Shown here in pieces: positions 1 to 16,753 of a DNA stretch of 64,000 nt. How positions within the stretch are numbered: the stretch's first letter is position 1; every line of letters begins with the position of its first letter. The notes under the pieces are model-generated. The model did no database searches. It saw only the letters and a program-made list of their open reading frames with translations, and had not been told where the DNA came from. The translations under genes were made by a program, and so were the position numbers. This stretch comes from Planctomycetota bacterium (GTDB lineage Bacteria; Planctomycetota; MHYJ01; WSZJ01): assembly GCA_009773755.1 (NCBI GenBank), contig WSZJ01000001.1, forward strand, positions 17,158 through 81,157, given 5' to 3'.

Positions 1-2827
1 TCGGAACGAGAATCCTCTCGAGGTCGGGCAGGTCCTCGCGGAAATCGCGGAGGTAGCGGACGCGGACGGGATAGCGCTCGCGCCCCTCGACGGTCTGGGT
101 GAGATTCTCGCCGCCGATGGCCACCTCGATGACGTCCTGCACGTCGCGGATGTTCACGCCGTAGCGCGCAATCTTTTCGCGGTCGATCTCAATCTCGATG
201 TACGGCTTGCCAACGATCCGGTCGGCCACGACGTCGGTCGCGCCGGGGACGTGGCGCAGAATCCCCTCCATCTGCAGTCCGATCTGCTCGATCTCCCGCA
301 GGTCGGACCCGTAGATCTTGACGCCCATCATGGCGCGGAAGCCTGTCTGCAGCATGATGAGCCGCGTCTGGATCGGCTGCAGGAACGTCGGGAGCACGCC
401 GGGGATCGCGGACTTCCGCTGGATTTCCTCCAGGATCTCACCTTTTGTGATCGAACGATCCTCCGAGGCGACGAATGCGAGCGGCGCCTTCAGCCAGCCG
501 GGCCACGAAGAGAACCAGCGCTTCACCGGAACGCGCCGCCACTCCGATTCCGGCTTCAGGATCACGACGCTCTCGAACATCCCGATCGGCGCCGGGTCGA
601 GCGCCGATTCCGCGCGCCCGAGTTTTCCGACGACCGACTCCACCTCCGGCACCGTAGCGATCGCCAGGTCCTGCCGGCTGTTCACCTCCACCGCCTGCGA
701 GAGCGAGCCCTGAGGCAGCATCGACGGCATGTACAGAATCGACCCTTCGTCGAGCGGCGGCATGAACTCGCGCCCGATCCCGGCGAGTATCCGCCCCTCG
801 CGCAGCACCTGAAGCCCCTTCCCGGACTCCGCCGCCTTTTCCTCGTCCGTCTGCCGCCGCCAGAGCACGCGGTTCCGGGCGCCTCCCCCCGCACCCTTCA
901 CTTTCTGCCAGCGCAGTTGGCCGGGCTCGAGGCGTGGCCTGGAAGCGGCGACGTTGGCGACCCAGCCGAGGGGGGCGAGCATGACGCCGGCGCCGAGCCA
1001 GACGGTGAGGCCCGCGAAGAGGATCACGGTCGGCAGGGCCAGGAACGCGAGCTTGTGTGCCAGGACGGTGCGAAGCGCGGGCCTGTACAGGCGGGCAATG
1101 CCGCGGGAAACGACGTTCTCCTCGAGCGGGAGAAAGCGTTCTTTGGTCATGCGCACGACCGCGAGGCCCGCAATCACGCCGGCGGCGATCGCGGTCGGCC
1201 AGCCGACGAGGCCGCCGGCAAATCCGCCCCATTCGAGCGCCCATCTGGCACCGATCGCGACCACGAGGCCAAGGCCGCACGCGACCGTCGCCACGCGCCT
1301 GCGCGTCCAGGCGACGGGCTGGAAGAGGAAGTAGCACATGAGGGGCACGACGGTGAGCGCGAGGACGACCGATCCGCCGATCGCGAACGTCTTGGTGTAG
1401 GCCAGGGGCTTGAAGAGTTTTCCTTCCTGCCCCGTGAGCGCGAACACCGGAATGAACGACACCAGCGTGTTGGAGACGGCGGTGACGATCGCGCCGCCGA
1501 CTTCGCGCGCGCCGTCGTACACGTTTTCGAAGTGGCTCCTGCCGGGCAGCGCCGTCGCAATGCGGCGATAGATGTTCTCGGTCATGATGATCCCCATGTC
1601 GCCGACGTCGCCGATGGCGATCGCCAGGCCCGCCAGCGACATGATGTTGGAATCGACTCCGACGGCCCACATGAGGACGAAGGAGAACGCGATGGCGAGC
1701 GGAAATGTGACGAGCGTGGCGGCGGCGCTTCGGAGGTGAAGAAGAAAAATGACGATGATGAGACTGGCGACGGCCATTTCCTCGAAGAGCGTCTCCTTCA
1801 AAGTCGCGATGGTTTGGTTGACGATGTCGGTGCGGTCGTAGAAAGGGACGATGCGGACTTTCGACCTGCGTCCGTCCGCGAGGCGCTTCGAGTCGAGCCC
1901 GGCCTCGAGCGTTTTGACTTTCTCCTTCACGCGCTCGACGACCGCGAGCGGATTTTCGCCGTAGCGCATCAGGACGACGCCACCGACGGCTTCGACGCCG
2001 CCCTTGTCGAGGGAACCCCGGCGAAAATCGGCGCCGAGCGTGACCGTCGCGACATTCCTGACGCAGACAGGCGTGCCGCCCTGCTGGCGGATGACGATGT
2101 TCTCGAGATCGGCGACGGACTTGACGAACCCGACGCCGCGGATGAAGAACTCGATTCCGTTCTTCTCGAGGACCTTCGCGCCCACGTCGACATTGGACTT
2201 CCGGACGGCTTCGTAGATCTCGGGGAGGCTCACGCCGTGCGCGCGCATTTTGTCCGGATGAACGTCGATCTGGTACTGCTTGACGAAGCCGCCGACGGAA
2301 GCGACTTCGGAGACGCCTTCAACGGCGTTGAGCTGGTACCGGACGTACCAGTCCTGGATCGAGCGCAGTTCGGCGAGGTCGAACCCTTCGCCTTCGAGGG
2401 TGTACCAGAAGACCTGTCCGAGCGCGGTGGCATCCGGGCCCAGGACGGGAGAGACGCCTTGGGGAAGGCGCTGCTGCGCGACGTTCATGCGCTCGAGAAC
2501 GCGCGAGCGCGCCCAGTAGTAATCGGTGGCATCGTCGAAGATCACGAAAACCATCGAGAATCCGAATCCGGACATCGAACGGATGGTCTTCACGCCGGGA
2601 GTGCCGGTGAGGCTCGTCGTCAGAACGAAAGTGACCTGGTTGTCTACGTCCTGCGGCGAGCGCCCCGGCCAGTCGGCGAAGACGATGACCTGCTTTTCTC
2701 CGATGTCCGGGATCGCGTCCACAGGCGTGCGTTTGATCGCTTCGTAGCCGCCCCACGCGAGCGCGGCCATCCCGATGAGGACCAGGAAGCGGTGGGTCAG
2801 GCACCAGCGAATGAGGGCATCGACCAT
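1..2827 (-). CDS. cusA: CusA/CzcA-family heavy-metal efflux RND transporter, 5' part only; the gene runs off the window start
   Basis: The minus-strand ATG is at 2827 (plus-strand 'cat' at 2825-2827). My own translation reads MVDALIRWCLTHRFLVLIGMAALAWGG...TPVDAIPDIGEKQVIVFADWPGRSPQDVDNQVTFVLTT...YYWARSRVLE, matching the CusA N-terminus. There is no stop within the window, which is why the ORF track omits it. The gene lies 3 nt downstream of the cusB-like stop. Confidence 0.85.
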   Translation of the reverse strand, partial: MVDALIRWCLTHRFLVLIGMAALAWGGYEAIKRTPVDAIPDIGEKQVIVFADWPGRSPQDVDNQVTFVLTTSLTGTPGVKTIRSMSGFGFSMVFVIFDDATDYYWARSRVLERMNVAQQRLPQGVSPVLGPDATALGQVFWYTLEGEGFDLAELRSIQDWYVRYQLNAVEGVSEVASVGGFVKQYQIDVHPDKMRAHGVSLPEIYEAVRKSNVDVGAKVLEKNGIEFFIRGVGFVKSVADLENIVIRQQGGTPVCVRNVATVTLGADFRRGSLDKGGVEAVGGVVLMRYGENPLAVVERVKEKVKTLEAGLDSKRLADGRRSKVRIVPFYDRTDIVNQTIATLKETLFEEMAVASLIIVIFLLHLRSAAATLVTFPLAIAFSFVLMWAVGVDSNIMSLAGLAIAIGDVGDMGIIMTENIYRRIATALPGRSHFENVYDGAREVGGAIVTAVSNTLVSFIPVFALTGQEGKLFKPLAYTKTFAIGGSVVLALTVVPLMCYFLFQPVAWTRRRVATVACGLGLVVAIGARWALEWGGFAGGLVGWPTAIAAGVIAGLAVVRMTKERFLPLEENVVSRGIARLYRPALRTVLAHKLAFLALPTVILFAGLTVWLGAGVMLAPLGWVANVAASRPRLEPGQLRWQKVKGAGGGARNRVLWRRQTDEEKAAESGKGLQVLREGRILAGIGREFMPPLDEGSILYMPSMLPQGSLSQAVEVNSRQDLAIATVPEVESVVGKLGRAESALDPAPIGMFESVVILKPESEWRRVPVKRWFSSWPGWLKAPLAFVASEDRSITKGEILEEIQRKSAIPGVLPTFLQPIQTRLIMLQTGFRAMMGVKIYGSDLREIEQIGLQMEGILRHVPGATDVVADRIVGKPYIEIEIDREKIARYGVNIRDVQDVIEVAIGGENLTQTVEGRERYPVRVRYLRDFREDLPDLERILVP

Positions 2828-2830
2828 GGA

Positions 2831-4297
2831 TTATTTCCCGTGATCCGAGCCTTCGTGCCCGGGCGGCTTCTCCCCGCCCGGCGGCGATTCCGTCCCCGCG
2901 CCGTGCTTGTGCGGCACGGGCGCCGCGCCGCCGCCGGGATTGAGAAGGCTCGGCAACCCGCGGATCTGGAATTGCGAATCGATCAGGAATCCGCCACGCA
3001 CCGCGACCCGTTCGCCCTCCGCGATCCCGGACATCACCGGAAACCATTCCCCCGATCGCGAACCGACCACGACCTCGCGCTGTTCGAAGCGCCCCGGCGC
3101 GCGCTGCACGTAGGCCAGCTTCCGGGTCCCCGAGTCGAGCACCGCGGTCGCCGGCACGGCGAGCACGCGAAGATCGTCATCCGAAGCCGTCGCGCCGCTT
3201 CCCGGAAACCGCACCAGCGGCATGCTGCATTTCGGGCAACTCCCCGCCGCTTCCGCGATCACCTCCGGGTGCATCGGACAAGTCCACTTCCCCGCCCGGG
3301 CCGTCGGCGCCGGCTTCCCGGACTTCAGCAGCCCCACGCGCAGCGAGGCGCTCACGAACATGCCGGGCTTCAGCAGGCCGTCGGGGTTGGGAAGAGCGAC
3401 GCGGACCCGGATCGTCCGCGTTTCCTCGTTGAGGACCGGGCTCACGAACGTCACCGTCCCGGCGAACGACGTTCCCGGCTGCGACTCGGCGATCGCTTTT
3501 ACTTCCTGCCCGGGCTGGACCCAGCCGATCTCGTACTCGTAAATGTCCAGGTGGACCCAGACGGACCCGAGGTCCGCGAGACGATAGAGCGTGTCGCCGC
3601 GATTGACGTGCGTCCCCTTCACGACCGCCTTTTCGAGAACCGTACCGGCCGCGGGAGCGTGGATGGTGACGAACTCCAGAACCTCCTTCGATTTGAGAAC
3701 TTGTTCTATTTCCTCGGCGCCCATTCCCCAGCGCTCCAGGCGGGACCGCGCCGCCTTCAGGACGTCCGCGGATGCATTGGTTCTCAGCGCGATCAGCAGC
3801 TCGCGCTGGTCGGAAATCAACTCGGGGCTGTACAGCTCGAGCAGGTGATCGCCCTTCGCAACCGGGACGCCCGTGGCATCGACGAAGAGCCGCTCGACCC
3901 ACCCCTCGACGCGCGTCGTGATCGTTGTCAGCGCGGTTTCGTTCGGCTCGACACGGCCGATGGCGCGAATCTCGTGGAAGAGCGGGCGGCGTGAGACCGG
4001 CGCGGTCTCGATGCCGGCCATGGCGATGGCGGCCTCGGAGAGCTGCATGGAAGGTGCGCCGCCCTTATCGCCCTTGTCGTCCTCGATCGGGATGAGCGGC
4101 ATGGAGCAGATCGGGCACTTTCCAGCGTTCGGCAGACGGATCTGCGGGTGCATCGAGCAGGTCCAGATCTGGCCCGTGACCTGCGCCACCGGTTTCTCTT
4201 CCGGCGCCGACCCGTCAGGCGCACAGCCGCGACCGGCGAGAAATACGATCAAGGCGCCGAGCAGTGCTGAAGCGGCGATCACCAAGTTCTTGTTCAT
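2831..4297 (-). CDS. cusB: Efflux RND periplasmic adaptor (membrane fusion protein), CusB-like, with N-terminal and internal CxxC/CSMHP metal-binding motifs
   Basis: A 488-aa ORF with signal/anchor MNKNLVIAASALLGALIVFLAG. It carries two 'TCSMHP...CPxCSMPL' metal-binding motifs typical of CusB-family adaptors, and a beta-barrel/lipoyl-like core (HLLELYSPELISDQRELL...). It sits directly upstream of cusA. Confidence 0.85.
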   Translation of the reverse strand: MNKNLVIAASALLGALIVFLAGRGCAPDGSAPEEKPVAQVTGQIWTCSMHPQIRLPNAGKCPICSMPLIPIEDDKGDKGGAPSMQLSEAAIAMAGIETAPVSRRPLFHEIRAIGRVEPNETALTTITTRVEGWVERLFVDATGVPVAKGDHLLELYSPELISDQRELLIALRTNASADVLKAARSRLERWGMGAEEIEQVLKSKEVLEFVTIHAPAAGTVLEKAVVKGTHVNRGDTLYRLADLGSVWVHLDIYEYEIGWVQPGQEVKAIAESQPGTSFAGTVTFVSPVLNEETRTIRVRVALPNPDGLLKPGMFVSASLRVGLLKSGKPAPTARAGKWTCPMHPEVIAEAAGSCPKCSMPLVRFPGSGATASDDDLRVLAVPATAVLDSGTRKLAYVQRAPGRFEQREVVVGSRSGEWFPVMSGIAEGERVAVRGGFLIDSQFQIRGLPSLLNPGGGAAPVPHKHGAGTESPPGGEKPPGHEGSDHGK

Positions 4298-4356: not shown

Positions 4357-4472
4357 TGTCAATTCAACTTCTGCCATCAAGCCACCACCCTGGACACGCC
4401 CCAGCTCCGTGGAATCTCGCAACAACCGTTCCCTGCCGGCTTCAGGACTTCCGTTTGCGAAGGTATCGCTTC

Positions 4473-5245: not shown

Positions 5246-5760
5246 TCATTTGTGGTCGTGATCGTGCTTTGTTCCCGGCGACAGCGCCTTCAGCTTCGCG
5301 ACGAGATCGCGCATCTTTGCGGTCGCCGCCTTCGTCTCGTCCGGCTTGCCGGCATCCGCCACTTCGTCGATCTCCCTGAACATCCCCGCCAGCTTTGCGG
5401 CGCTCTCGGCTGCCGACGCCGACTTGTCCGCGGGCCAGCCTTGCGTCTGCTCAGGCATTCCCTTGGCGAGAGTGCAGATGACCTCGGCCTCCCGGTGCAC
5501 CTCATCGAGCTTGCCGGAAGCGATCAACCCGTCGATCGTCTTCAGGCGTTCTTCCATCTGGCCGATGGAATCTTCGAAGCTGTTCGATGAGACCTTCACC
5601 GGCTCTCCGCCGTGGGAGTGCCCCTCATGGCCTTTCTCCCCTTTCGCGGCCGCCGCATCCTTGGGCCCGTGGTTGTGTCCTGCGTGGCCGTCTTCGGACT
5701 TCCCGCAGCCGCCGAGAAGAAGACCGGCCGCGACGATGGCGGCGGTCATGAGCGTCTTCA
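5246..5760 (-). CDS. His-rich periplasmic lipoprotein, putative metal-binding component of the efflux operon
   Basis: The internal start is MKTLMTAAIVAAGLLLGGCGKSEDGHAGHNHGP...HEGHSHGG...KHDHDHK. It has a lipobox LLGGC and His-rich termini. Its stop overlaps the RND gene upstream by a few nt. The 409-aa track ORF's N-terminal part looks non-coding (Arg/Pro-rich). Confidence 0.55.
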
Positions 5761-8700
5761 TTTCAGTTCTCCTGTGTGGGACACAGCCTGGAGAAGCCCC
5801 GGGGGCACTTCTTCCGGCGCGTCGTGGGTTGCGAGGCGTTTTTCGAAGACTTTGCGGCCGAGCAGGTAGAAAAGCGCGGGAGTCACGAACTGGTCGAGGA
5901 GTGTGGAAGAAATCAGGCCGCCGATGACGACGATGGCGAGCGGATGGAGGATTTCCTTGCCGGTTTCGCCCTTCCCGAGCGCGAGCGGAACGAGTCCTAT
6001 ACCCGCGGTGAGCGCGGTCATCAGCACAGGAGCAAGCCGCTCGAGCGACCCGCGGACGATCATCTCCGTGCCGAAAACCTCGCCTTCGTGACGCATGAGA
6101 TGGATGTAGTGCGAGATCATCATGATCCCGTTGCGCATGACGATGCCGGTGAGCGTGATGAAGCCGATGAGCGAAGCGACGGACAGCGTGCGGTCGCCGA
6201 ACCACCATACGGCGAGAACGCCGCCCACGAACGCGAGCGGGAGGTTGACGAGGCACTGAAGCGCGGCGCGCCAGGACCCGAGGGCGCGCGTCAGAAGGAC
6301 GAAGATGGCGAGGAGCGCGAAAACGGAGAGGACGGCGATGCGCGTGGCGGCGGCGCGCCGCGCTTCGAACTGGCCTCCATACTCGATCCGGTACCCCGCC
6401 GGGAGGTCGAGCGCTTTCTCCAGCGCCCGGATGTCCGCGACGACGGAGGTAATGTCCCGCCCGGCCGCGTTGCACTGCACCGCGATGCGCCGCTGGCTCC
6501 CTTCCCGGTTGATCGTGTTCGGACCGCTCGAGCGCGCGACGTCGGCGACCGCGGCAAGCGGAATACGGGCGCCTGAGGGCGTCGTCAGCAGCGCCCGTTC
6601 GATGACGCGCGGGTCGTTGCGCGCTCCCTCGTCAAACCAGACGACCATGTCGATCGAACTGTCGCCCTGCAAAACCTGAGACACCGTTCGCCCCTTCAGC
6701 GCCGTCTCAAGCGCTTCCGCCACGTGCCGCGCGCCAAGGCCGTAGAGTTTGAGCATGTCGCGCCGGATTCGGACGCGGAGCTCGGGGATATTGACCTGCG
6801 GCTCCACCTGGAGGTCCACGACTCCCGGGACTTTCGCCATCCGGTCCGAGAGGCGCGCGGCTCGATCGCGGAGGACGTCGAGGTCGGGTCCAAAAATCTT
6901 CACCGCGAGCTGCGCCTTGACGCCGCTCATCAGGTGATCGATCCGGTGCGAAATCGGCTGCCCGAGGTTGACGACGGCGCCCGTCATGTAGGACAGCCGC
7001 TCGCGAATGTCCGCCATCACCTCGTCGCGCTCACGTCCGGACTGCAGGACGACTTCAATTTCCGAAGAATTCACTCCCTCAGCGTGCTCGTCCATCTCAG
7101 CCCGTCCCGTCCGTCGCGCGGTCGAAACCACTTCGGGAACTTCGTGGAGAAGTGCCTCCGCAACCGCTCCGAGCCGGTTGGATTCCTCAAGTGACGTCCC
7201 GGGCTCGGTGACGACATTGACGGTAAAGGTCCCCTCGTTAAAGGGCGGAAGGAATTCGCCGCCCATCCGGAGGAAAGCCCAGCCCGCAGCAACAACGCCG
7301 AGCGCGGGTGGAATGAGGACGATCAGAGGAAACCGGAGTGACAAGCCCAGGACGCGGCGATCGGCGGCCTTCAGGAAGCGGAGAAGCGCGGGATCGCCGC
7401 GGCGTTCGGTGACGCGGGCTTTTCCGAGAAGCATGTAGGACAGCGCCGGGGTGACGGTCAGGCTGACGAGGAGCGACGCGAGCAGCGCGGTCAGGTAGGC
7501 GTAGCCGACAGGAGCGAACAGGCGTCCTTCGATCCCGGAGAGCGACATGAGGGGGACGAGCGCGGCGGCGATGACGAGGGTCGCATAGACGATCGAGTTG
7601 CGAACTTCGGCGGAAGCGCGGAAGACGACGAGAAGGGGATGCTCCGGGTTTGTTTTTTCGCGGCTCTCGCGCAGCCTGCGAAAGATGTTCTCGACGTCCA
7701 CGATGGAATCATCGACGAGTTCACCGACGGCGACGGCGATGCCGCCGAGCGTCATGGTGTTGATGGACAGGCCGAACGCATGGAACACGAGAACCGTCAG
7801 GACGAGCGAAAGCGGGATCGCGGTCAGGTTGACGACCGATGTGCGCAAGTTCCAGAGGAAGAGGATGAGAATGACGACCACGAGAATCGTGCCGTCCCTC
7901 AGCGCGTCCAGGACGTTGCGGATCGCAGCGTCGATGAAGGACTCCTGGCGGAAGAGGCGGTTGTTCACGCGGACGTCCGGGGGAAGTGATCCCATGAGTC
8001 CATCGAGCGCGGCGTCGATGTCCCTGCTGAGCCGGACGGTGTCGGCCTCCGGCTGTTTCTGGATCGAGAGGATGACGGCGGGTTTCGCGTCGATGGCGCC
8101 GTCGCCGCGCGCGGGCGCCGGGCCCCACGCGACTTCGGCGACGTCCCGGACGAGGACCGCCACAGGCTGGCGATCCGCCACGACCGCTTCACGGACGTCG
8201 TCGAGCGAATCGGCGCGGCCTGTGATGCGGATGAGCGACTCGGTCCCGGGTTCGGCGAGGAAACCGCCTGCGACGCTGGAATTCGAGTCGGCGACGGCGT
8301 CGGAGAGGTCTTCGAGCGTCACGTCGTGGCGGCGGAGTCGTTCGGGGGTGGTAGTGACCTGGATCTGCCGAAGGCCGCCGCCCATGACGGTCACCTGTGA
8401 AATCCCGGGCACGGACAGCAGGCGCGGGCGGACTCTCCATTCGGCGAGCGAACGGATATCGATGGGCCGCGTCGTGCCGTCTTCGGAGAACATCCCGACG
8501 ATCAGGATTTCCCCCATGATGGAGGAGATCGGCGCCATCTCGGGATGCGCCCCCTCGGGCAAGCGGTCGCCAATCTGGGTCAGTTTCTCGCCGACAATCT
8601 GGCGATCCCGGTAGATGTCCGTTCCCCAGTCGAATTCGACCCAGACGATCGACAGCCCCACGCCGCTCGCCGACCGCACGCGCCTCACGCCCGCCGCGCC

Positions 8701-8922
8701 GTTCACCGACGTCTCGATCGGAAACGTCACGAGCCGCTCCACTTCTTCGGGCGCCAGTCCGGGCGCTTCCGTCATGATCGTGACCGTCGGCCGGTCCAGG
8801 TCGGGAAGCACGTCGACCTTCATTCCCGCGGCCGTCCAGGCGCCGTACACCGACGCCACCAGCGCGAGCGCGAGGACAAGCCCGCGATGCGTGAGCGAGA
8901 AGGCGATGAGACGGTTCAGCAC
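5758..8922 (-). CDS. CusA/CzcA-family heavy-metal efflux RND transporter
   Basis: A 1054-aa protein with the typical RND 12-TM layout and large periplasmic loops. It is similar in pattern to the partial CusA at 1-2827 (MLNRLIAFSLTHRGLVLALALV...DVLPDLDRPTVTIMTEAPGLAPEEVERLVTFPIET). Confidence 0.9.
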   Translation of the reverse strand: MLNRLIAFSLTHRGLVLALALVASVYGAWTAAGMKVDVLPDLDRPTVTIMTEAPGLAPEEVERLVTFPIETSVNGAAGVRRVRSASGVGLSIVWVEFDWGTDIYRDRQIVGEKLTQIGDRLPEGAHPEMAPISSIMGEILIVGMFSEDGTTRPIDIRSLAEWRVRPRLLSVPGISQVTVMGGGLRQIQVTTTPERLRRHDVTLEDLSDAVADSNSSVAGGFLAEPGTESLIRITGRADSLDDVREAVVADRQPVAVLVRDVAEVAWGPAPARGDGAIDAKPAVILSIQKQPEADTVRLSRDIDAALDGLMGSLPPDVRVNNRLFRQESFIDAAIRNVLDALRDGTILVVVILILFLWNLRTSVVNLTAIPLSLVLTVLVFHAFGLSINTMTLGGIAVAVGELVDDSIVDVENIFRRLRESREKTNPEHPLLVVFRASAEVRNSIVYATLVIAAALVPLMSLSGIEGRLFAPVGYAYLTALLASLLVSLTVTPALSYMLLGKARVTERRGDPALLRFLKAADRRVLGLSLRFPLIVLIPPALGVVAAGWAFLRMGGEFLPPFNEGTFTVNVVTEPGTSLEESNRLGAVAEALLHEVPEVVSTARRTGRAEMDEHAEGVNSSEIEVVLQSGRERDEVMADIRERLSYMTGAVVNLGQPISHRIDHLMSGVKAQLAVKIFGPDLDVLRDRAARLSDRMAKVPGVVDLQVEPQVNIPELRVRIRRDMLKLYGLGARHVAEALETALKGRTVSQVLQGDSSIDMVVWFDEGARNDPRVIERALLTTPSGARIPLAAVADVARSSGPNTINREGSQRRIAVQCNAAGRDITSVVADIRALEKALDLPAGYRIEYGGQFEARRAAATRIAVLSVFALLAIFVLLTRALGSWRAALQCLVNLPLAFVGGVLAVWWFGDRTLSVASLIGFITLTGIVMRNGIMMISHYIHLMRHEGEVFGTEMIVRGSLERLAPVLMTALTAGIGLVPLALGKGETGKEILHPLAIVVIGGLISSTLLDQFVTPALFYLLGRKVFEKRLATHDAPEEVPPGLLQAVSHTGELK

Positions 8923-8935
8923 CTGGAATTCCCTC

Positions 8936-11119
8936 TTACTTGACTGCGCTCAACCCGAGATTCAGTTCGTCCAGCGCGGAGACCGCCACGCGGTCCCCGG
9001 GATAGAGCCCTTGCACGATCTCGACATCGCGCGCGCCTCTCCGCCCCGGCACAACGCGCTGCCGCCGGAATGTCTCTCCTTCCTGAAGGAACACGTACCA
9101 GCTCCCGCTGGAGGGCCAGAGGGCCTCCTCCGACACGGCGATCACCTGCCCGCCGCCCGCACCTGTCTCGACCACCAGCTCCGCCACCATTCCTTCGCGT
9201 AACTGGCCGCCCGGGTTCAGGACATCAGCCCAGACGAAGAGCGCATTGCCCGCACCGAGACCGGGTGCAATCCCGGAGACTTCGGTGGACCAGCCAAGTC
9301 CCGGCCATGCCGCGGGGCGGAGAACCGCCTTTGCTCCTCGCGCAGGGACGCCCTCGACCAGCCGCGACTCCGGAAGCACGCCCTCGGCGCGCAGAACGGC
9401 GGTGTTCGCGATTTCGAACAGCCTTTCGCGAGCCTCGACGACCTGGCCCGGGGCAACGGAGGACGCCACGATGACGCCCGCAATCGCCGAGCGCAGCGTC
9501 ACGGCGGCTCCCGGCTTTCCCTCGCGCTGCACGAACTCGACCTCGTCTGCCGGCACGCCAACGGCTGTGAGCTTCGCCTTCAGAGCGAGCGCGGCGAGTC
9601 TCTCCGCGCGCAACTCCGCTTCCAGCCGCAGCAATTCCTTCCGAGCGGAGATTCCCTTTTTCTCCAGCTCGCGGAGAAACCCCGCGCGCTTATCCAGAAG
9701 AGCGATCCGCGTCGCCGCCCGGATCAGCTCCACTTCGTCTCCCCGGACTTCGACGGACTCCACCTCCGCCAGCGGCGTTCCTGCTTCAACCCGGTCGCCT
9801 TCGAATACGAACACGCGGCGGACCTTGCCGTGGGCGAGGCTCGCGACGAATGCCGAAGTGCCGGGCGGCGCGCGCATCGTCGCAGAGAGCCGGATGACCG
9901 GCTCCACGGTGCTCAAGTCCGCCTCGGCGATCCGGACGCCGTGTTCCACAAGGGCGTCGGCGTGGATTTCAAAGACACCCTGCACGAAGAGCGAGGCGAG
10001 TTCGCGCGCGCCGTTCACGACAACCGCGTCCCCCGCCTTGATGCCGGAGGGGATCTCGACATCGCTTCCCGAGCGAGCTCCCGGAGTTACCGGCTGCCGC
10101 CGGTACCGGCCGCTTCCGAGCGAAACGAAGGCGAACCGCTCGATTCCCTGGCGCGCAACGGCGCCGCGCGGCACAAGAACGCCGCTGGCCGAACGGCGAA
10201 TCAGGTCGAGCCTGCCCGGCGTCCCCGGCCGAAGTCCTTCGGACCTGCCGATCTTCGCCGCGACGGACAGAGTTCGAGTGGCCGCATCGACGCGGGCGGC
10301 GACGCGCGCGAGCGAAACGGTGAATGACAGGCCGGGGAGAGCCTCGAAGGAAGCGCGTGCGGCGCGGCCTGCCTGGGCGTCCGCGGCGAAATACTCCGGG
10401 ACCCAGCCCTCGACCCACAGTTCCGCGTCGTCCACAATTTCGAACAGGTGCAGTTCCGGAACCACGATCTGCCCTTGCGTGACATCGACGTGCACGCAGA
10501 CTCCGTCGCCGGCCGCGAGAATTTTCAGCTGCCGGATCGCGGGGCCGCCCGCCCTCATCGCGCCGATCGCCTCGTCCTCGACCCCCGCGATCCGCATTTT
10601 CTGAAGCGCGGCCTCCAGGGAGATCCGGCGGTCGTCGGCGATCCCCCTCAAAGATTCGATTTCCTGTTCGGGCAGGATCGCCGGAGACGCCGCCTCGGCC
10701 CGCTTCAGATCCGCCTCGGCGGTAGCAAGGTCGTCTTGCGCCTGATTCCACTGCAGCGCCAGCGATTCCAGATCGATCGAATCGACCACGGCGAGCACGT
10801 CGCCGGCCCTCACGCGATCGCCGACCGCACATTTCACGGACGTCACCACTCCGGCCAGACGCGCGCTGGCGAACGATCGCGCCCCGGGAGCCGGCACGAT
10901 GCGAGCGCTGACGGGAAGCGAATCCTCGACGGAGCCTTCCCGGGCGAGCGCCGTCGAGATCCCGAGAGCGCGCTCTGTACGCTCGTCCAGGATCAAAAGC
11001 GCTCCCATCACCCTGACGCCCTTTGCTTCGAGTCCCTTGTGACCTTCGTGCGCGACCAGCAGGGCGGTCGCGGCGAGGCCGAGAACAACGGCGCAGGCAA
11101 CCTTGCGGCTAGTTCTCAT
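8936..11119 (-). CDS. Tandem-duplicated efflux RND periplasmic adaptor (two HlyD/CusB-like modules fused, about 727 aa)
   Basis: The ATG is at 11119 (MRTSRKVACAVVLGLAATALLVAHEGH), with an N-terminal anchor. Two successive adaptor-like halves each carry coiled-coil and beta-barrel segments. The gene sits directly upstream of the RND pump. Confidence 0.75.
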   Translation of the reverse strand: MRTSRKVACAVVLGLAATALLVAHEGHKGLEAKGVRVMGALLILDERTERALGISTALAREGSVEDSLPVSARIVPAPGARSFASARLAGVVTSVKCAVGDRVRAGDVLAVVDSIDLESLALQWNQAQDDLATAEADLKRAEAASPAILPEQEIESLRGIADDRRISLEAALQKMRIAGVEDEAIGAMRAGGPAIRQLKILAAGDGVCVHVDVTQGQIVVPELHLFEIVDDAELWVEGWVPEYFAADAQAGRAARASFEALPGLSFTVSLARVAARVDAATRTLSVAAKIGRSEGLRPGTPGRLDLIRRSASGVLVPRGAVARQGIERFAFVSLGSGRYRRQPVTPGARSGSDVEIPSGIKAGDAVVVNGARELASLFVQGVFEIHADALVEHGVRIAEADLSTVEPVIRLSATMRAPPGTSAFVASLAHGKVRRVFVFEGDRVEAGTPLAEVESVEVRGDEVELIRAATRIALLDKRAGFLRELEKKGISARKELLRLEAELRAERLAALALKAKLTAVGVPADEVEFVQREGKPGAAVTLRSAIAGVIVASSVAPGQVVEARERLFEIANTAVLRAEGVLPESRLVEGVPARGAKAVLRPAAWPGLGWSTEVSGIAPGLGAGNALFVWADVLNPGGQLREGMVAELVVETGAGGGQVIAVSEEALWPSSGSWYVFLQEGETFRRQRVVPGRRGARDVEIVQGLYPGDRVAVSALDELNLGLSAVK

Positions 11120-12467
11120 GAGGACACTTCTCCCCTGTTTTGTGAATTCCGCGGCACTTGCAATGCCCCGCAACGTCCACCATGGAGCACTTCCCTTCGC
11201 GCACGCTGCACGGGCAGGGTCTGTCAGGCCGGGGGACGGCGAGGGACCGAACGTACTCGACGAGCGCGTCCACGTCCTGCGTCGATACTTCCCGGAAGGC
11301 CGGCATCGATCCGGACAGATTCCAGTGCAGACCGCCGTTTGAAATCACTTCGCGCAGGTATTCGTCCGAGAGCGCGTTCATGCGTTCGCCGTCCGCGAAA
11401 TTCCGCGGGCGGAACGCGCCTTGGACGACGCGGGGGCCGACCACCCGGCCGGTGGCCCCATGACAACTCGCGCACGCGGCGAGGAACAAGGAGGCGCCGC
11501 GATCCGCCGGCGGGTTCCGGAGAAGCGCCTCCGCGGCTTCTTCGTCGTCCGCAAACTGTCCGAGGGCCTCTCGCAACCGCGGCGTCGCCGCCTCGATCGT
11601 CGTTCGCAGGACGTGCTCTACGTCCGGCGCGCCTGCAAGCCTGTCCGCCGCCCGGCCGGCCAGCCACCCATCGACCGCGTCCGCCGGGATTCCGCGGACG
11701 CGGATCCGCCGGTGCGACTCCATCGCCACCAGCCGCGCCTCCATGTCAAAAGTCAGGGTCAATCCCGCGCGGACGCCGTCGATCTCCGCCACCGGGTACG
11801 TCGCATATCCCGTCACGTGCCCCTGCGCGTCCACGTACGCGTGCACGGGCGCCCGCCGCACTCCCCCCCCCGCCCGCACCAGCCGCTCGTCCGACAAGAT
11901 CGCTTCCAGGTCCCGCACGCGGACTCCCGCCTCCGCCGGGGGCGCCGGCGCGAGCGTGCGCACGTGCGCCACCAGCGCCCATATCTGAAGCGCGTCAAAC
12001 CGGTCGTCCCACCGCGGCATGAGTTTCGACCGCCCGACCTCCGGGCCGCCGCCACGGATCGCCTGGAAGAGGTCGTCGTCGGTGCGCGCGTTCATGTAAG
12101 AAGCATCCGTGTGGTCGCGCGGACGGGGCCAGAGCGCCGCGGCGGCGGGGCCGTCGCCCGCGCCCCCCGCGCCGTGGCACGACGCGCAGTGAACTTCGTA
12201 CAACGCCTTCCCGGCTGCAGGGTCGCCAGGCAGAACGCCCGTGCGCGTCCGGTTTTCCAACCAGACTCGAGCGGCCACCTTTGGCGACGGTCCTGCTCCC
12301 GGCCGGCGCCACCCCCAAGCCAACACGACGATCCCGACGGTGATCAGAACCGATGTCACAAGCACTATCCCCCAGAGGCGCCTCTTCACTTCCGGCCCTC
12401 CACCCTCGGAAACCTCGACAGATCCCGCACCACGTCCCAACGGAACTTCAGGTGGCACTTCACGCAA
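11109..12467 (-). CDS. Di-heme c-type cytochrome with a C-terminal Cys/His-rich tail
   Basis: Two CxxCH heme motifs (HCASCHGAGG and ACASCHGATG) in separate cytochrome c-like domains. An N-terminal TM/signal anchor LWGIVLVTSVLITVGIVVLAWGW. The tail reads PCPCSVREGKCSMVDVAGHCKCRGIHKTGEKCPHEN. The start is uncertain because the 5' end overlaps the upstream ORF by about 80 nt. Confidence 0.7.
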   Translation of the reverse strand: MREVPPEVPLGRGAGSVEVSEGGGPEVKRRLWGIVLVTSVLITVGIVVLAWGWRRPGAGPSPKVAARVWLENRTRTGVLPGDPAAGKALYEVHCASCHGAGGAGDGPAAAALWPRPRDHTDASYMNARTDDDLFQAIRGGGPEVGRSKLMPRWDDRFDALQIWALVAHVRTLAPAPPAEAGVRVRDLEAILSDERLVRAGGGVRRAPVHAYVDAQGHVTGYATYPVAEIDGVRAGLTLTFDMEARLVAMESHRRIRVRGIPADAVDGWLAGRAADRLAGAPDVEHVLRTTIEAATPRLREALGQFADDEEAAEALLRNPPADRGASLFLAACASCHGATGRVVGPRVVQGAFRPRNFADGERMNALSDEYLREVISNGGLHWNLSGSMPAFREVSTQDVDALVEYVRSLAVPRPDRPCPCSVREGKCSMVDVAGHCKCRGIHKTGEKCPHEN

Positions 12468-13369
12468 CTCTCTGTCTCCAGCGCCGACTGCATCGCCCGC
12501 GCGGCCGCGAAGTTTTTGCGCGCCGCCAGCTCCCCCAGCTCGGAAAGACGCCCCTTCAGGTCCTCTCCGTACTTCACGAACTCTGGTTTGTCGTCGCCGT
12601 TCACGTGCAGCTCGAAAAGCGGCAGCCGCTTCCGCTCGTCTTCGATTCGACTGGCGGAAGCGCGGATGACCGCGGCGTCGGGATTTTCTTTCTCAAGCTC
12701 GAGCTGGATGGCCTGCCAGTGGCGCCCGAAGCGCCGCATGACCTCGTGCTGCCGCGCCATCGTGAAGGGCTCGTCGGCGATGGCCGGAGCCGTGCTCTCC
12801 CCCGTCGTGAATGAACCGGAAAGGCGCACCGCCTCGCCCGTCGAGGTGGTGGCTTCCATGATGAAGCGCGTGTCGCCGGGATGTGCGGCCAGGCGGAGCG
12901 CCCCGTAGGCGTTGCCGCCGAGAGGCTGCAGGCGGACGGTCGTCCTCCGGGCCGGACGCTCGCGATCGACCTCGAAGAAATAGACGAGGGGGTCGCGCAG
13001 TTCTACCGGGGCCGATTCGTCGGCGCCGTCGCCTTTCTTCGGCGCCAGAACGACCCGCAACCGGACCTCGGAGCCGGCCGCAGGCGTGCCCGGGTCGATC
13101 GTGACGATCAACTGGCCGCCGGCCGCCCAGCGTTGAAGTCGCTTCGCCGACACGAACTTCGCCGGATCGGCGAGGAATTGCGCCCGCTCTTCGATCTGGC
13201 AGAAGTAGTAGGTCTTGCCGAGGTAATCGGCGCTCGCCGCGGCGTGCTCGGGGTCGATCATCATGCCGCAGATCGGGTCGCGCACGGGATCGTGCGCGAA
13301 CGCGACGGAGTGCGGCATGAGCAAGGCAAGGGCAAGCGGGAATTTCCGCATGGGCGCACCTGAAAACAC
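12386..13369 (-). CDS. Secreted YHS-domain protein fused to a class II (cytochrome c'-like) C-terminal heme domain
   Basis: Signal peptide MRKFPLALALLMPHSVAFA. A YHS/TRASH motif DPICGMMIDPEHAA...GKTYYFCQIEERAQFLADPAKF. A C-terminal helical region ends with a single CVKCH heme-binding motif near the C-terminus, as in cytochrome c'/c556. Confidence 0.65.
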   Translation of the reverse strand: MFSGAPMRKFPLALALLMPHSVAFAHDPVRDPICGMMIDPEHAAASADYLGKTYYFCQIEERAQFLADPAKFVSAKRLQRWAAGGQLIVTIDPGTPAAGSEVRLRVVLAPKKGDGADESAPVELRDPLVYFFEVDRERPARRTTVRLQPLGGNAYGALRLAAHPGDTRFIMEATTSTGEAVRLSGSFTTGESTAPAIADEPFTMARQHEVMRRFGRHWQAIQLELEKENPDAAVIRASASRIEDERKRLPLFELHVNGDDKPEFVKYGEDLKGRLSELGELAARKNFAAARAMQSALETESCVKCHLKFRWDVVRDLSRFPRVEGRK

Positions 13370-13409
13370 GGGAAGCGGGAGGGGAAACGACGGTCCCGTC
13401 CGGCGCGCG

Positions 13410-13805
13410 CTAGATCAGCAGCGAGGCGTGAAGAGTGTAGAGCGGAACGTCCGGCGCCCTCCCGGGTGGAGAAACGTCGGATACGTAACGGTCGGCCCCG
13501 GTGCGGACTGCGTCCAGAAACAGGTCGACGGGCACCTCGACCACCGGGGACTTGACGCCGACGGTCGGCTCATCCTGGACGGCAAAATGCGAAGGGTCGT
13601 CGCAGCAGCACGAACTCTTCACGGGCTTCGACGGCTGCGGCTCATCAGGAGACTTCTTCGTGCAGCATCCATGCCCCTCGGGCTTCGCCTTCGACTCCGC
13701 GGCTCGCGGCACGGACGAAAAGGTGCACGCACATGCCGACAGATGGGCCGCCAGGAAGGCGGCGACCACGAACGGCGAGCAGCGGCGGAGCTTCACGGGG
13801 ATCAC
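13410..13805 (-). CDS. Small secreted Cys-rich (CC/CCC motif) protein, putative metal-binding
   Basis: A GTG start with AAGGA about 10 nt upstream. The signal/lipobox-like N-terminus is FVVAAFLAAHLSACAC. Motifs HGCCTKK and SSCCCDDPSH are present. It is the first gene of the minus-strand metal operon. Confidence 0.4.
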   Translation of the reverse strand: MIPVKLRRCSPFVVAAFLAAHLSACACTFSSVPRAAESKAKPEGHGCCTKKSPDEPQPSKPVKSSCCCDDPSHFAVQDEPTVGVKSPVVEVPVDLFLDAVRTGADRYVSDVSPPGRAPDVPLYTLHASLLI

Positions 13806-14018
13806 CTTATGTCATCCTTCGTTGGGAAAGCAAGCCGGTTCTTGCGCGGTTCTTGCGCGACGCCTTCCCGAACAACCCAAATCCGCGGCGTATTCCCGCT
13901 CCCCGGACCACTCTGCGGCCAGAATCACAGCGTGCTGGGAAGAAGTCCACATAGACCCCGCGAGGCTCGCGCCTTCCGCCGAACCGACTGGCACGGCCGT
14001 TGCGACAGGAGTTCCTCC

Positions 14019-14418
14019 CATGAAGACCGCCCGCGATTACATGAGTTCTCCCGTCTGCACGCTTCCCCGCACAGCGACCGTTCTGGAAGCGGCCCGCCTG
14101 CTGCTCGACAAGAGGCTGACGGGTGTGCCCGTCCTCGACGCGAAGGGCCGTCCCGAGGGCGTCTTCAGCCTTCGCGACCTCGCGAAGTTCTTTCTCGATC
14201 CGCTGCTTGACACTCCGGGAAGCCGGCCCGACGCCGCGAACGCCCCGATTTCCGGGCTGATGACGCACCACGTCGTGACCGTGAGGCCCGAAGCGACGGT
14301 CGAGGCGATCAGAACGGCGATGAAGACCAGCAAGGTTCATCGGCTGGTGGTGGAGGACGGACACGGAAAGTTGCTCGGAATCGTCAGCGCTTCGGACCTG
14401 GCGACGAGGGATGTCTGA
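14019..14418 (+). CDS. CBS-pair domain protein
   Basis: An internal start MKTARDYMSSPVCTLPRTATVLEAARLL...GVPVLD...HRLVVEDGHGKLLGIVSASDL gives two CBS motifs. The upstream part of the 305-aa track ORF looks non-coding. Confidence 0.75.
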
Positions 14419-15290: not shown

Positions 15291-16682
<1,392 letters not shown>

Positions 16683-16737
16683 GAGGGGCACCGCGAAGAG
16701 GAGGCGTGGTTGGGGGGATGGAGTCCCGGTCCGAGAG

Positions 16738-16753
16738 TGCAAGGGGAATGCCG
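16738..16753 (-). promoter_or_regulatory. Possible sigma-54 (-24/-12) promoter upstream of the NtrC-like gene
   Basis: The minus strand reads CGGCATtccccTTGCA. The GG and GC elements have canonical 10-nt spacing. It lies about 55 nt upstream of the ATG at 16682. The match is imperfect (CGGCAT rather than TGGCAC). Confidence 0.3.

What the first reader, a model, noticed from the sequence alone, without database searches (positions are those of the whole stretch)
5246..13805. Heavy-metal RND efflux operon coupled to c-type cytochromes and a YHS domain: candidate redox-linked metal export system
One minus-strand gene string runs Cys-rich small secreted protein, then a YHS-domain protein fused to a cytochrome c'-type C-terminal CVKCH, then a di-heme cytochrome c with a Cys/His-rich tail (PCPCS...GHCKCRG...KCPHEN). 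It continues with the tandem-duplicated membrane fusion protein, the CusA/CzcA RND pump and the His-rich lipoprotein. Genes abut or overlap, with only 5 nt between the cytochrome stop and the adaptor start. Classical cus/czc operons carry a CusF-type chaperone, not hemoproteins. The YHS domain is a copper-binding module, so the YHS-cytochrome fusion suggests periplasmic Cu(I)/Cu(II) (or another redox-active metal) electron transfer feeding or assisting the pump.
Basis: partly seen in the sequence, partly recalled or inferred. Interest (0 to 1): 0.72.

Follow-up and report, generated by a model that had tools for sequence, protein, structure and literature searches.

The report
Cytochrome pair built into metal-efflux operon
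An uncultured Planctomycetota bacterium carries a six-gene metal-export operon whose first genes encode two haem proteins fused to metal-binding modules; this pairing recurs in about 19 related loci, is not described in the literature I could search, and suggests (without proving) that electron transfer is coupled to metal export.

Summary
The gene string is real. Six minus-strand genes (13805..5246) abut or overlap.

- **Cys-rich lipoprotein**
- **YHS, beta-sandwich and class II cytochrome c fusion**, with an invariant C-terminal CxxCH
- **Membrane-anchored dihaem class I cytochrome c**, with a conserved Cys6/His3 tail
- **Tandem-duplicated adaptor**
- **CusA/CzcA-family RND pump**
- **His-rich lipoprotein**

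The two cytochrome genes are adjacent in all of about 19 related loci, at 26-84% identity, all from Planctomycetota MAGs or metagenomes. In about 14 loci they sit with the OMF, tandem-adaptor and pump genes, once in permuted order. They are never next to respiratory genes. That supports a functional link.

- The cytochrome and adaptor genes overlap by 11 nt. There is no 5-nt gap.
- The pump is not Cus-like. The CusA Met triad is N/S/H here. It carries the E-H-E-H-H site and the HAEGVN/HRIDH motifs of the NieA-like 'HME5?' class. A true Met-triad Cus pump lies next door (1..4297).

The same adaptor, pump and His-lipoprotein core occurs without cytochromes (L098, L101), so the pair is an add-on.

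My best reading is a haem relay that changes the redox state of a thiophilic metal, probably oxidising Cu(I) to Cu(II), for a His/Glu-type pump. The metal and the direction of electron flow are inferred. This is a new variant of a known kind.

The parts
13410..13805 (-). First gene: small (131 aa) Cys-rich probable lipoprotein. It has a signal sequence ending LSAC-AC, the motifs H-G-CC-x-K and S-CCC-DD-x-x-H, and a conserved C-terminus PLYTLHASLLI.
   Evidence: ORF and sequence. No Pfam or NCBIfam hit. Orthologues at 39-62% identity sit in the same position in L001/L002, L003, L004 and L009. The motifs are conserved.
12386..13351 (-). Periplasmic three-domain protein (321 aa). It has a cleavable signal (..VAFA|HD), a YHS/TRASH domain (nt 13145..13285; Cys28, Cys51) and a CrdA-like beta-sandwich (residues 70-184). 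The C-terminal four-helix class II cytochrome c domain carries MxxQHxxM (12737..12760) and CVKCH (12452..12466).
11109..12389 (-). Membrane-anchored dihaem class I cytochrome c (426 aa). It has an N-terminal TM helix, haem 1 CASCH (12174..12188) with Met124, a central beta domain, a long helix, and haem 2 CASCH (11460..11474) with Met362. The C-terminal Cys6/His3 tail lies at 11112..11219. The GTG start overlaps the upstream stop (GTGA).
   Evidence: Pfam and NCBIfam. Both CxxCH motifs and both Met are invariant in 15 sequences, and the tail is conserved in 12 of 15. AF2 model with pLDDT 78.6. Foldseek hits to c552, c6, ActE and the caa3 cytochrome c domain. Junction.
8936..11119 (-). Tandem-duplicated RND membrane fusion (adaptor) protein of 727 aa. 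The conserved N-terminal AHEGHK motif follows the membrane anchor. The ATG overlaps the cytochrome gene by 11 nt.
   Evidence: Two RND_mfp/HlyD_D23 stretches. The halves are 29% identical, E 4e-15. Orthologues of 720-762 aa occur in all related loci. AHEGHK is also present in L003.
5758..8922 (-). HME-RND inner-membrane pump (1054 aa) of the NieA-like 'HME5?' type. TM4 reads AVGELVDDSIVDVEN (7681..7746), with HAEGVN (7069..7086) and HRIDH (6934..6948). It has no CusA Met triad.
   Evidence: TIGR00914 scores 779 bits. Alignments to ZneA 4k0e and CusA 3t51. The motifs are conserved in 9 orthologues. Class definition from PMC7060636.
5246..5761 (-). Last gene: His-rich lipoprotein (171 aa) with a conserved helical domain (..GKLDEVH..EIDEAADAGK..) and an HDHDHK tail. 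Its ATGA start overlaps the pump stop.
   Evidence: A weak, sub-threshold cyt b562 Pfam hit is not backed by conserved haem ligands. The family has 171 members. It lies 3' of the pump in L001, L003, L005, L009, L012, L098, L100 and L101.
13806..14019 (.). Divergent intergenic region upstream of the operon. It holds an 11-nt tandem direct repeat CGCGCAAGAAC x2 (13838..13859, minus strand) followed by CGGCTTGC (13830..13837). This is a candidate operator or promoter region.
   Evidence: Read. A similar GCAAAAACCCGCTTG occurs upstream in L009. No sigma-70 or sigma-54 consensus faces the operon.
1..4297 (-). Context, not part of the operon: a second heavy-metal RND system. It comprises a CusB-like adaptor with two HMBD domains (2831..4297) and a CusA-like pump that keeps two of the three Met-triad positions within the part held by the window, and runs off the window start.
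   Evidence: Pfam. EGSILYMPS and TRLIMLQTG are in the window copy. All three Met positions are in the L001 orthologue. The same neighbour is seen in L001 and L009, and an OMF plus HMBD adaptor in L006.

Best explanation
This is one transcription unit encoding a tripartite-type heavy-metal RND exporter. The exporter comprises a tandem adaptor, a NieA-like His/Glu-site pump and a His-rich periplasmic lipoprotein. The outer-membrane factor is encoded elsewhere in this genome.

A lineage-specific two-protein haem relay has been added at the 5' end of the operon. The soluble protein joins a Cys2 YHS metal site and a CrdA-like beta-sandwich to a c-556/c'-type haem domain. Its partner is an inner-membrane-anchored dihaem cytochrome c with a Cys6/His3 tail.

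The most likely working is as follows. A thiophilic redox-active metal, probably Cu(I), is captured on the cysteine sites (Cys-lipoprotein, YHS, tail). It is oxidised by one electron through the class II haem. The electron passes to the membrane-anchored dihaem cytochrome and on to the respiratory chain. The product, Cu(II), is handed to histidine-type sites (adaptor HEGH, His-lipoprotein, the pump's E-H-E-H-H site) and expelled.

Shown: gene order, coupling and conservation; domain identities; the pump's site type.

Inferred: haem attachment, the identity of the metal, any electron transfer to or from the metal, and its direction.
For: - **Operon structure.** There are 4-nt, 11-nt and 4-nt overlaps and 13- and 58-nt gaps. 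There are 11 terminator-like sites against 6.7 +/- 2.9 in shuffles, all weak.
- **Conserved linkage.** The YHS-cytochrome gene is followed directly by the dihaem gene in every locus with enough sequence (about 19). These include the window, L001, L003-L009, L012, L013, L089-L092, L094-L096 and L100. About 14 of them also carry OMF, tandem adaptor and pump genes. L012 has the pump first and the cytochromes last.
- **Translational coupling** between the two cytochrome genes is kept in relatives: 4-17 nt overlaps in L001, L003, L004, L006, L007 and L008.
- **Haem-binding features are invariant.** These are C296/C299/H300 plus M198/Q201/H202/M205 in the class II domain, and both CxxCH motifs plus both Met in the dihaem protein.
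- **Metal modules are conserved.** These are the YHS Cys pair, the tail, the CC/CCC motifs and AHEGHK.
- **Pump site.** It is His/Glu, not Met.
- **Copper context.** A Met-triad Cus-like pump with an HMBD adaptor is adjacent. An HMA P1B-ATPase is in L100. The beta-sandwich is closest to the H. pylori copper determinant CrdA.
- **Precedent.** The periplasmic protein CopG is genetically linked to cus and copA, aids anaerobic Cu resistance, and is proposed to oxidise Cu(I) (PMC7558416).
- **No respiratory genes** are nearby.
Against: - No experiment exists and all carriers are uncultured MAGs.
- The core adaptor, pump and His-lipoprotein system occurs without cytochromes (L098, L101). The pair occurs without a pump within 7-10 kb in L013 and L094. 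The coupling is therefore not obligatory.
- The beta-sandwich has no invariant Met, His or Cys, so similarity to CrdA is at fold level only.
- The Pfam Cytochrom_C_2 score of the window protein itself is below the cut-off.
- The pump class is only predicted, and predicted for Ni.
- Some family members lack the YHS domain, and one clade lacks the Cys/His tail.
- The direction of electron flow cannot be read from sequence.
Confidence: 0.5

Rival explanations
1. Same components, opposite direction. The cytochromes take electrons from the respiratory chain (bc1/ACIII level) and reduce a bound metal, for example Cu(II) to Cu(I). The reduced ion is then passed to an exporter, possibly the neighbouring Met-triad Cus-like pump.
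For: Cysteine-rich sites (YHS, tail, CC/CCC) stabilise Cu(I), which makes reduction of bound Cu(II) thermodynamically easy (general chemistry, inference). A Cu(I)-type pump with an HMBD adaptor is adjacent in the window, L001 and L009, and an HMBD adaptor in L006.
Against: The cytochromes are translationally coupled to the His/Glu-site pump, not to the Cus-like one. Many loci have no Cus-like neighbour in the sequence available. Making more Cu(I) in the periplasm is generally harmful (established knowledge of CueO function).
Confidence: 0.15
2. The substrate is not copper. It is another divalent metal such as Ni(II), Co(II), Zn(II) or Fe(II). The haem proteins then serve as metal chaperones or buffers whose haems play a structural, sensing or protective role (for example quenching metal-driven radicals), not redox conversion of the substrate.
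For: The pump matches the NieA-like class that its describers predicted to be a Ni exporter. His-rich stretches suit Ni, Zn or Co. The host genomes come from groundwater and a Lac Pavin/Lake Fargette sample (record titles). The beta-sandwich also resembles FetP, and the haem domain resembles cytochrome c/FTR1 iron-permease fusions.
Against: Ni and Zn have no accessible redox chemistry, which would leave three conserved haems unexplained. The CC/CCC and Cys2 YHS sites are soft-metal ligands. A NieA-type pump in a Rhodospirillales MAG sits beside DUF305 and a CPC-type Cu-ATPase. The window pump has HAEGVN, not the H-X4-H 'Ni motif' HAEGVH.
Confidence: 0.2
3. The cytochromes are ordinary or stress-replacement respiratory electron carriers. 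They are co-transcribed with the pump, for example because copper damages c-type cytochrome assembly, and have no direct role in metal handling.
For: The dihaem protein resembles CcoP, c552, c6 and ActE carriers. The pair can occur away from any pump (L013, L094). c-type cytochrome assembly is reported as a periplasmic copper target (citation seen in PMC10304878).
Against: Both proteins are fused to conserved metal-binding modules. They are never next to oxidase, bc1 or ACIII genes in any locus examined. The linkage to the pump survives gene-order permutation.
Confidence: 0.1
4. The C-terminal CxxCH of the YHS protein is a metal (Cys/His) site on a helical bundle rather than a haem attachment site. 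The system would then have only the dihaem protein as a redox component.
Against: The position of CxxCH, followed by KFR at the end of helix 4, is the class II cytochrome signature. The top 9 PDB profile hits are cyt c' or c-556. Stand-alone relatives at E 1e-12 to 1e-9 pass the Pfam cut-off. The invariant Met in helix 1 matches the c-556/b562 ligand position. Low pLDDT is expected because no haem is modelled.
Confidence: 0.05

Closest known systems
E. coli CusCFBA Cu(I)/Ag(I) efflux system (HME4)
   Same: It is a CusA/CzcA-family RND pump with an A-x5-D-x6-E TM4 motif, a CusB/CzcB-type adaptor, periplasmic accessory metal-binding proteins encoded in the operon, and an OMF gene in most relatives.
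   Different: The Met triad is absent (N/S/H). There is no CusF. The adaptor is a tandem fusion with an HxxH, not Met-rich, N-terminus. Two c-type cytochromes are in the operon. A real Cus-like pump lies next door.
NieIC-cep-NieBA of Cupriavidus neocaledonicus STM 6070 ('HME5?'/proposed class 6; PMC7060636)
   Same: The proximal-site residues are E-H-E-H-H. The motifs are HAEGV(H/N)xSE and HR(L/I)DH, and TM4 reads A(I/V)G-x3-DD(A/S)-x3-VEN. An extra exported protein is encoded in the operon.
   Different: NieA is only predicted to export Ni and is untested. No cytochromes, YHS protein or tandem adaptor are described for nie. Identity to proteobacterial NieA-type pumps is about 50% (L086).
Helicobacter pylori CrdA-CrdB-CzcB-CzcA copper resistance system
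   Different: Sequence identity is 15-16%. No invariant Met or His ligands are found in the domain here. CrdA is a stand-alone protein with no haem or YHS fusion.
CopG (periplasmic CxCC tetranuclear-Cu protein) and CueO/CopA multicopper oxidases
   Same: They share the functional idea: a periplasmic redox protein genetically linked to cus and copA. CopG is proposed to oxidise Cu(I) to Cu(II) and matters under anaerobic conditions (PMC7558416).
   Different: The folds and cofactors are unrelated: thioredoxin-like with a Cu4 cluster, or cupredoxin with O2, versus c-type haems here. From memory and not checked here (the paper was not held), some CopG homologues are fused to cytochrome c.
Class II c-type cytochromes (cytochrome c', c-556) and cytochrome b562
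   Same: They share a four-helix bundle with a single CxxCH close to the C-terminus followed by (K)FR, and a Met in helix 1.
   Different: Here the domain is the C-terminal third of a 321-aa protein, behind a YHS domain and a beta-sandwich. It scores below the Pfam cut-off itself and has its own signature, MxxQHxxM ... F-x-LH ... CxxCHLKFRW.
Cytochrome c/FTR1 iron-permease fusions (database names only)
   Same: A class I cytochrome c domain is joined to a metal transporter. These are among the best outside matches of the haem domain (35-43% identity over about 90 aa, E about 1e-13 to 1e-15).
   Different: The transporter family and direction differ (uptake), the cytochrome is fused rather than operon-linked, and the function of those fusions is itself inferred.

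Membership tests
CusA-type (HME4) Cu(I)/Ag(I) RND pump | CusA/CzcA-family RND permease (TIGR00914 above cut-off) | tested here: met
   778.9 bits against a cut-off of 701.45. PDB best hits are ZneA at 8e-142 and CusA at 4e-139.
CusA-type (HME4) Cu(I)/Ag(I) RND pump | Three-methionine periplasmic binding site (M573, M623, M672) | tested here: not met
   The positions align to N569, S619 and H663. This holds in all 9 orthologues. By contrast, the neighbouring pump keeps the Met residues.
CusA-type (HME4) Cu(I)/Ag(I) RND pump | CusF chaperone and Met-rich CusB N-terminus | tested here: not met
   No CusF-type domain is found in any operon protein. The adaptor N-terminus is AHEGHK.
NieA-like 'HME5?' RND pumps (PMC7060636) | Proximal site E-H-E-H-H with HAEGVH and HRLDH motifs | tested here: met
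   The residues are E138, H613, E621, H659 and H663. The motifs are HAEGVN (last His replaced by Asn) and HRIDH.
NieA-like 'HME5?' RND pumps (PMC7060636) | TM4 consensus AIG-x3-DDA-x3-VEN | tested here: met
   AVG-ELV-DDS-IVD-VEN, with conservative I/V and A/S changes.
NieA-like 'HME5?' RND pumps (PMC7060636) | Nickel export | not testable with these tools
   This is only a prediction in the source paper as well.
Class II c-type cytochromes (c'/c-556; Pfam PF01322) | Single CxxCH near the C-terminus of a four-helix bundle | tested here: met
Class II c-type cytochromes (c'/c-556; Pfam PF01322) | Score above the Pfam gathering threshold | tested here: not met
   17.1 bits against a cut-off of 26.5. 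Nine of 10 members match below threshold. The indirect link is significant: the family profile hits P0305, P0306 and P0316 at E 2e-12 to 1e-9, and these pass the cut-off at 29-33 bits.
Class II c-type cytochromes (c'/c-556; Pfam PF01322) | Covalently bound haem; axial Met (c-556 type) or five-coordinate (c' type) | not testable with these tools
   Invariant M198 and M205 in helix 1 suggest Met/His ligation.
Class I cytochrome c (PF00034/PF13442), dihaem | Two domains above threshold, each with CxxCH and a distal Met | tested here: met
   87.8 and 78.2 bits, two stretches each. C68/C71/H72/M124 and C306/C309/H310/M362 are invariant in 15 sequences.
YHS/TRASH metal-binding domain (PF04945) | Score above the gathering threshold and a conserved Cys pair | tested here: met
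   33.1 bits against a cut-off of 30.3, and up to E 8e-15 in relatives. C28 and C51 are conserved. The third TRASH Cys is present only in distant members, as CSESC and CGPAC.
YHS/TRASH metal-binding domain (PF04945) | Binds copper | not testable with these tools
RND membrane fusion proteins (TIGR01730) | Adaptor domain set | tested here: met
   203 bits in two stretches, that is two complete adaptor units in one chain.

The most novel reading that the evidence does not exclude
The pair is a haem-based, O2-independent periplasmic metal oxidase wired to an RND exporter. Toxic Cu(I), or another reduced thiophilic metal, is oxidised on a YHS-cytochrome. Its electron is fed through a membrane-anchored dihaem cytochrome into the respiratory chain, and the oxidised ion is pumped out by a His/Glu-site pump. 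Detoxification, export and electron harvesting would then be one machine. This would be the first RND efflux system with built-in electron-transfer subunits.
Probability: 0.25. Interest if true: 0.8.

Novelty: new variant of a known kind. Interest (0 to 1): 0.6.

Why it matters
Heavy-metal RND systems are understood as proton-driven pumps fed by simple metallochaperones. A conserved operon in which two c-type cytochromes carry their own metal sites would add redox conditioning of the substrate to that picture.

It would also offer an oxygen-independent alternative to multicopper oxidases. That is a known gap for copper tolerance in low-oxygen habitats such as the groundwater and lake sites these genomes come from.

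The system gives a concrete, small and expressible test object: a 321-aa YHS-haem protein and its dihaem partner. It also flags three uncharacterised protein families (the Cys-lipoprotein, the His-lipoprotein helical domain and the tandem adaptor) and an untested pump class (NieA-like).

If the cytochromes prove unrelated to metal handling, the finding reduces to an unusual operon in a few uncultured Planctomycetota.

Tried and rejected
1. **Sigma-54 control of the operon.** The only perfect TGGCAC-N5-TTGC in the window (13989..14003) faces the divergent CBS gene. No GG-N10-GC match was found upstream of the operon in 11 loci. The NtrC-type regulator at 15291..16742 is 45% identical to the one next to L005, which is not enough to call them orthologues.
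2. **His-lipoprotein as a haem-less paralogue of the cytochrome c' domain, or a b562-type cytochrome.** hhalign gives a probability of 2.4% and the b562 ligand positions are not conserved.
3. **Central beta domain of the dihaem protein as a flavinylated FMN_bind domain.** There is only a weak resemblance to the NqrC/RnfG fold (E 0.5-1) and no conserved Thr or Ser.
4. **Internal terminators or promoters.** Nothing was found beyond chance.
5. **An OMF gene in the window.** None was found.
6. **Literature.** No paper combines a YHS domain, cytochrome c and efflux in this sense. The Geobacter Co study has cytochromes induced together with czc but not in the operon. The CopG paper was not held. One search was rejected for a bad term. 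The FTR1-cytochrome search returned nothing relevant.
7. **YHS-domain loci outside Planctomycetota (L014-L088).** These are mostly P-type ATPases or adaptors. None has the cytochrome pair.

Full report
**1. What is there**

The window comes from a Planctomycetota MAG. The YHS protein is 100% identical to an NCBI/ENA protein found on a 431-kb contig.

Between 13805 and 5246 the minus strand carries six ORFs. Their junctions, read from the sequence, are:
- Cys-rich lipoprotein (13805..13410), then a 58-nt gap.
- YHS protein (ATG 13351..12386), whose TGA overlaps the GTG of the next gene (GTGA).
- Dihaem cytochrome (12389..11109). Its last 11 nt overlap the ATG (11119) of the adaptor, which is preceded by GGGGAG.
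- Adaptor (11119..8936), then a 13-nt gap.
- Pump (8922..5758), whose stop overlaps the ATG of the last gene (ATGA).
- His-rich lipoprotein (5761..5246).

The point that the genes are tightly packed holds.

A consensus scan found no sigma-70-like promoter and 11 weak terminator-like hairpins, against 6.7 +/- 2.9 in shuffles. None lies at a gene junction.

**2. Domain identities**

Pfam and NCBIfam give:
- YHS at 33.1 bits (cut-off 30.3), and a sub-threshold Cytochrome c' match at 17 bits (cut-off 26.5), for the 321-aa protein.
- Two class I cytochrome c domains (E 6e-25 and 1e-21) for the 426-aa protein.
- Two complete RND adaptor units for the 727-aa protein. Its halves are 29% identical, E 4e-15.
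- TIGR00914 (CusA/CzcA family) at 779 bits for the pump.
- Nothing for the two lipoproteins, apart from a weak b562 hit for the last one.

There are exactly three CxxCH motifs in the operon.

**3. The YHS-cytochrome**

In 10-14 homologues down to 26% identity, the following are invariant or nearly so:
- the YHS cysteines (C28, C51);
- a helix-1 motif MxxQHxxM (M198, Q201, H202, M205);
- F246-x-L-H249;
- the C-terminal C296-x-x-C299-H300-L-K-F-R-W.

The AF2 model (pLDDT 77) has three parts: YHS (22-65), a beta-sandwich (70-184) and a helical bundle (198-294). Confidence is low only around the haem-less CxxCH.

An exhaustive profile search of 1.84 billion representatives finds 133 relatives. After about 30 fused proteins come stand-alone proteins of 130-150 aa at E 1e-12 to 1e-5. 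Three that I checked pass Pfam's own cut-off for Cytochrome c'.

The conserved helix-1 Met suggests a six-coordinate, c-556-like electron carrier (inference).

**4. The dihaem cytochrome**

Both CxxCH motifs and both distal Met residues are invariant in 15 sequences at 36-84% identity. The tail pattern CPC-x6-C-x7/8-C-x-C-x3-H-x5-C-x-H is kept in 12 of them and missing in one clade.

The model (pLDDT 78.6) shows:
- an N-terminal TM helix;
- a cytochrome c domain;
- a beta domain;
- a long helix;
- a second cytochrome c domain;
- a disordered tail.

The haem domains resemble c552, c6, ActE and the caa3-fused cytochrome c, and CcoP. These are carriers that work at the oxidase end of respiratory chains.

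**5. Is the link to the pump real?**

I collected related loci in four ways:
- exact protein look-up;
- a scan of 185,579 species genomes;
- a metagenome scan;
- mapping of the six window proteins plus an OMF by tblastn.

The full-length YHS-cytochrome occurs in only five species-level genomes, all Planctomycetota MAGs.

In every locus with enough sequence (about 19 distinct), the dihaem gene directly follows the YHS-cytochrome gene, usually with a 4-17 nt overlap.

About 14 loci also have OMF, tandem adaptor and pump genes. Most follow the order YHS-cyt, dihaem, OMF, adaptor, pump, His-lipoprotein. L012 has the pump block first and the cytochromes last.

In two loci (L013, L094) the pair stands alone among unrelated genes.

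No locus places the pair next to oxidase, bc1 or other respiratory genes. The window's own surroundings hold an FNT transporter, a CBS protein, regulators, RlmN, a kinase and CysRS.

Conversely, the tandem adaptor, the same pump type and the His-lipoprotein occur without any cytochrome in L098 and L101.

I conclude that the pair is an accessory module recruited to one kind of RND system.

**6. What kind of pump?**

Residue-level alignments to CusA and ZneA show the CusA Met triad replaced by N569, S619 and H663.

The ZneA proximal-site positions read E138, H613, E621, H659 and H663. The motifs are HAEGVN and HRIDH, and TM4 reads AVG-x3-DDS-x3-VEN. All are conserved in nine orthologues.

This is the pattern tabulated for NieA of Cupriavidus neocaledonicus (E-H-E-H-H; HAEGVH; HRLDH; AIG-x3-DDA-x3-VEN). 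That source labels it 'HME5?' and proposes a new class with predicted, untested Ni specificity (PMC7060636).

A NieA-type pump in a Rhodospirillales MAG sits next to a DUF305 protein and a CPC-type Cu-ATPase.

The pump just downstream in the window (1..2830), with an adaptor carrying two HMBD domains (2831..4297), does keep the CusA methionines.

So the cytochromes belong to the non-Cus pump of a two-pump metal island.

**7. Mechanism**

Shown:
- a conserved, translationally coupled operon;
- three probable haems on two exported proteins, one soluble and one membrane-anchored;
- soft-ligand (Cys) modules on the first three proteins;
- His-type ligands on the adaptor N-terminus (AHEGHK, also in L003), in the pump site and on the last lipoprotein.

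Inferred:
- a thiophilic redox-active metal, most plausibly Cu(I), is bound on Cys sites;
- it is oxidised through the class II haem;
- the electron leaves through the dihaem cytochrome to the respiratory chain;
- Cu(II) goes to the His/Glu pump.

The CopG precedent makes this reasonable. CopG is genetically linked to cus and copA, aids anaerobic Cu resistance, and is proposed to oxidise Cu(I) (PMC7558416).

The rivals I consider are the reverse direction, another metal (Ni, Co, Zn or Fe), and a purely respiratory role. They are weighed in the rival explanations section. None can be excluded by computation.

**8. Novelty**

Full-text searches found no description of cytochromes or YHS-haem fusions in HME-RND operons. 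The public names of these proteins are generic.

The pump and adaptor are known kinds. The haem relay, the Cys-lipoprotein and the His-lipoprotein domain are undescribed. I rate this a new variant of a known kind, with interest 0.6.

Noticed in passing
window 8936-11119 (-); also L098 4552-6714, L101 4245-6509, L100 4506-6785: The adaptor is a natural head-to-tail fusion of two complete RND membrane-fusion units (halves 29% identical). It is conserved at 720-762 aa wherever this pump type occurs, with or without cytochromes. RND adaptors normally assemble as six separate chains, so a fused dimer may be of structural interest.
   Followed up: partly
window 1-4297 (-): There is a second heavy-metal RND system directly downstream. 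Its CusB-like adaptor has two HMBD domains. Its CusA-like pump keeps the Met-triad positions and runs off the window start. The same neighbour is found in L001 and L009, and an OMF plus HMBD adaptor in L006.
   Followed up: partly
window 13989-14003 (+): This is the only perfect sigma-54 -24/-12 match (TGGCACGGCCGTTGC) in the 64-kb window. It lies 16 nt upstream of the ATG of a CBS-domain gene (14020..14418) and 1.3 kb from an NtrC-type activator (15291..16742). About 0.1 perfect matches are expected by chance.
   Followed up: partly
window 13830-13859 (-): An 11-nt tandem direct repeat CGCGCAAGAAC x2 is followed by CGGCTTGC, so GCAAG..CTTGC forms a small palindrome. It lies 25-55 nt upstream of the operon's first start codon. 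A similar GCAAAAACCCGCTTG occurs in L009. It may be an operator.
   Followed up: no
window 5246-5761 (-); L005 19135-19989; L007 8772-9647; L099 3161-3634: The helical domain of the His-rich lipoprotein (..GKLDEVH..EIDEAADAGKK.ET..) defines a family of about 171 proteins with no Pfam model. It occurs alone, fused to HMBD, or fused to a His-rich beta-sandwich. In L099 it lies near a CsoR-type repressor and a MerT-like gene, not a pump.
   Followed up: partly
L096 9479-11867: This is an apparently decayed copy of the system. The YHS-cytochrome is split, and only 58-229-aa fragments of the dihaem, OMF and adaptor genes are detectable. It could be a pseudogenised locus or an assembly artefact.
   Followed up: no
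window 11697-11921 (-) (residues 157-231 of the dihaem cytochrome): The beta domain between the two haem domains has a weak fold resemblance to the FMN_bind domains of NqrC and RnfG (Foldseek E 0.5-1). It has no conserved flavinylation Thr or Ser. Its role is unknown.
   Followed up: partly
window 4455-5141 (+): An AAA_28 P-loop NTPase gene is wedged, on the opposite strand, between the two RND systems. The same gene sits next to these systems in L001 and L004. Its role is unknown.
   Followed up: no
P0305 (150 aa, from the exhaustive search): Stand-alone class II cytochromes share the family's MxxQHxxM and F-x-LHK motifs and carry a His-rich N-terminus (HKHEHSHH). This hints at a wider group of metal-associated four-helix cytochromes.
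   Followed up: no
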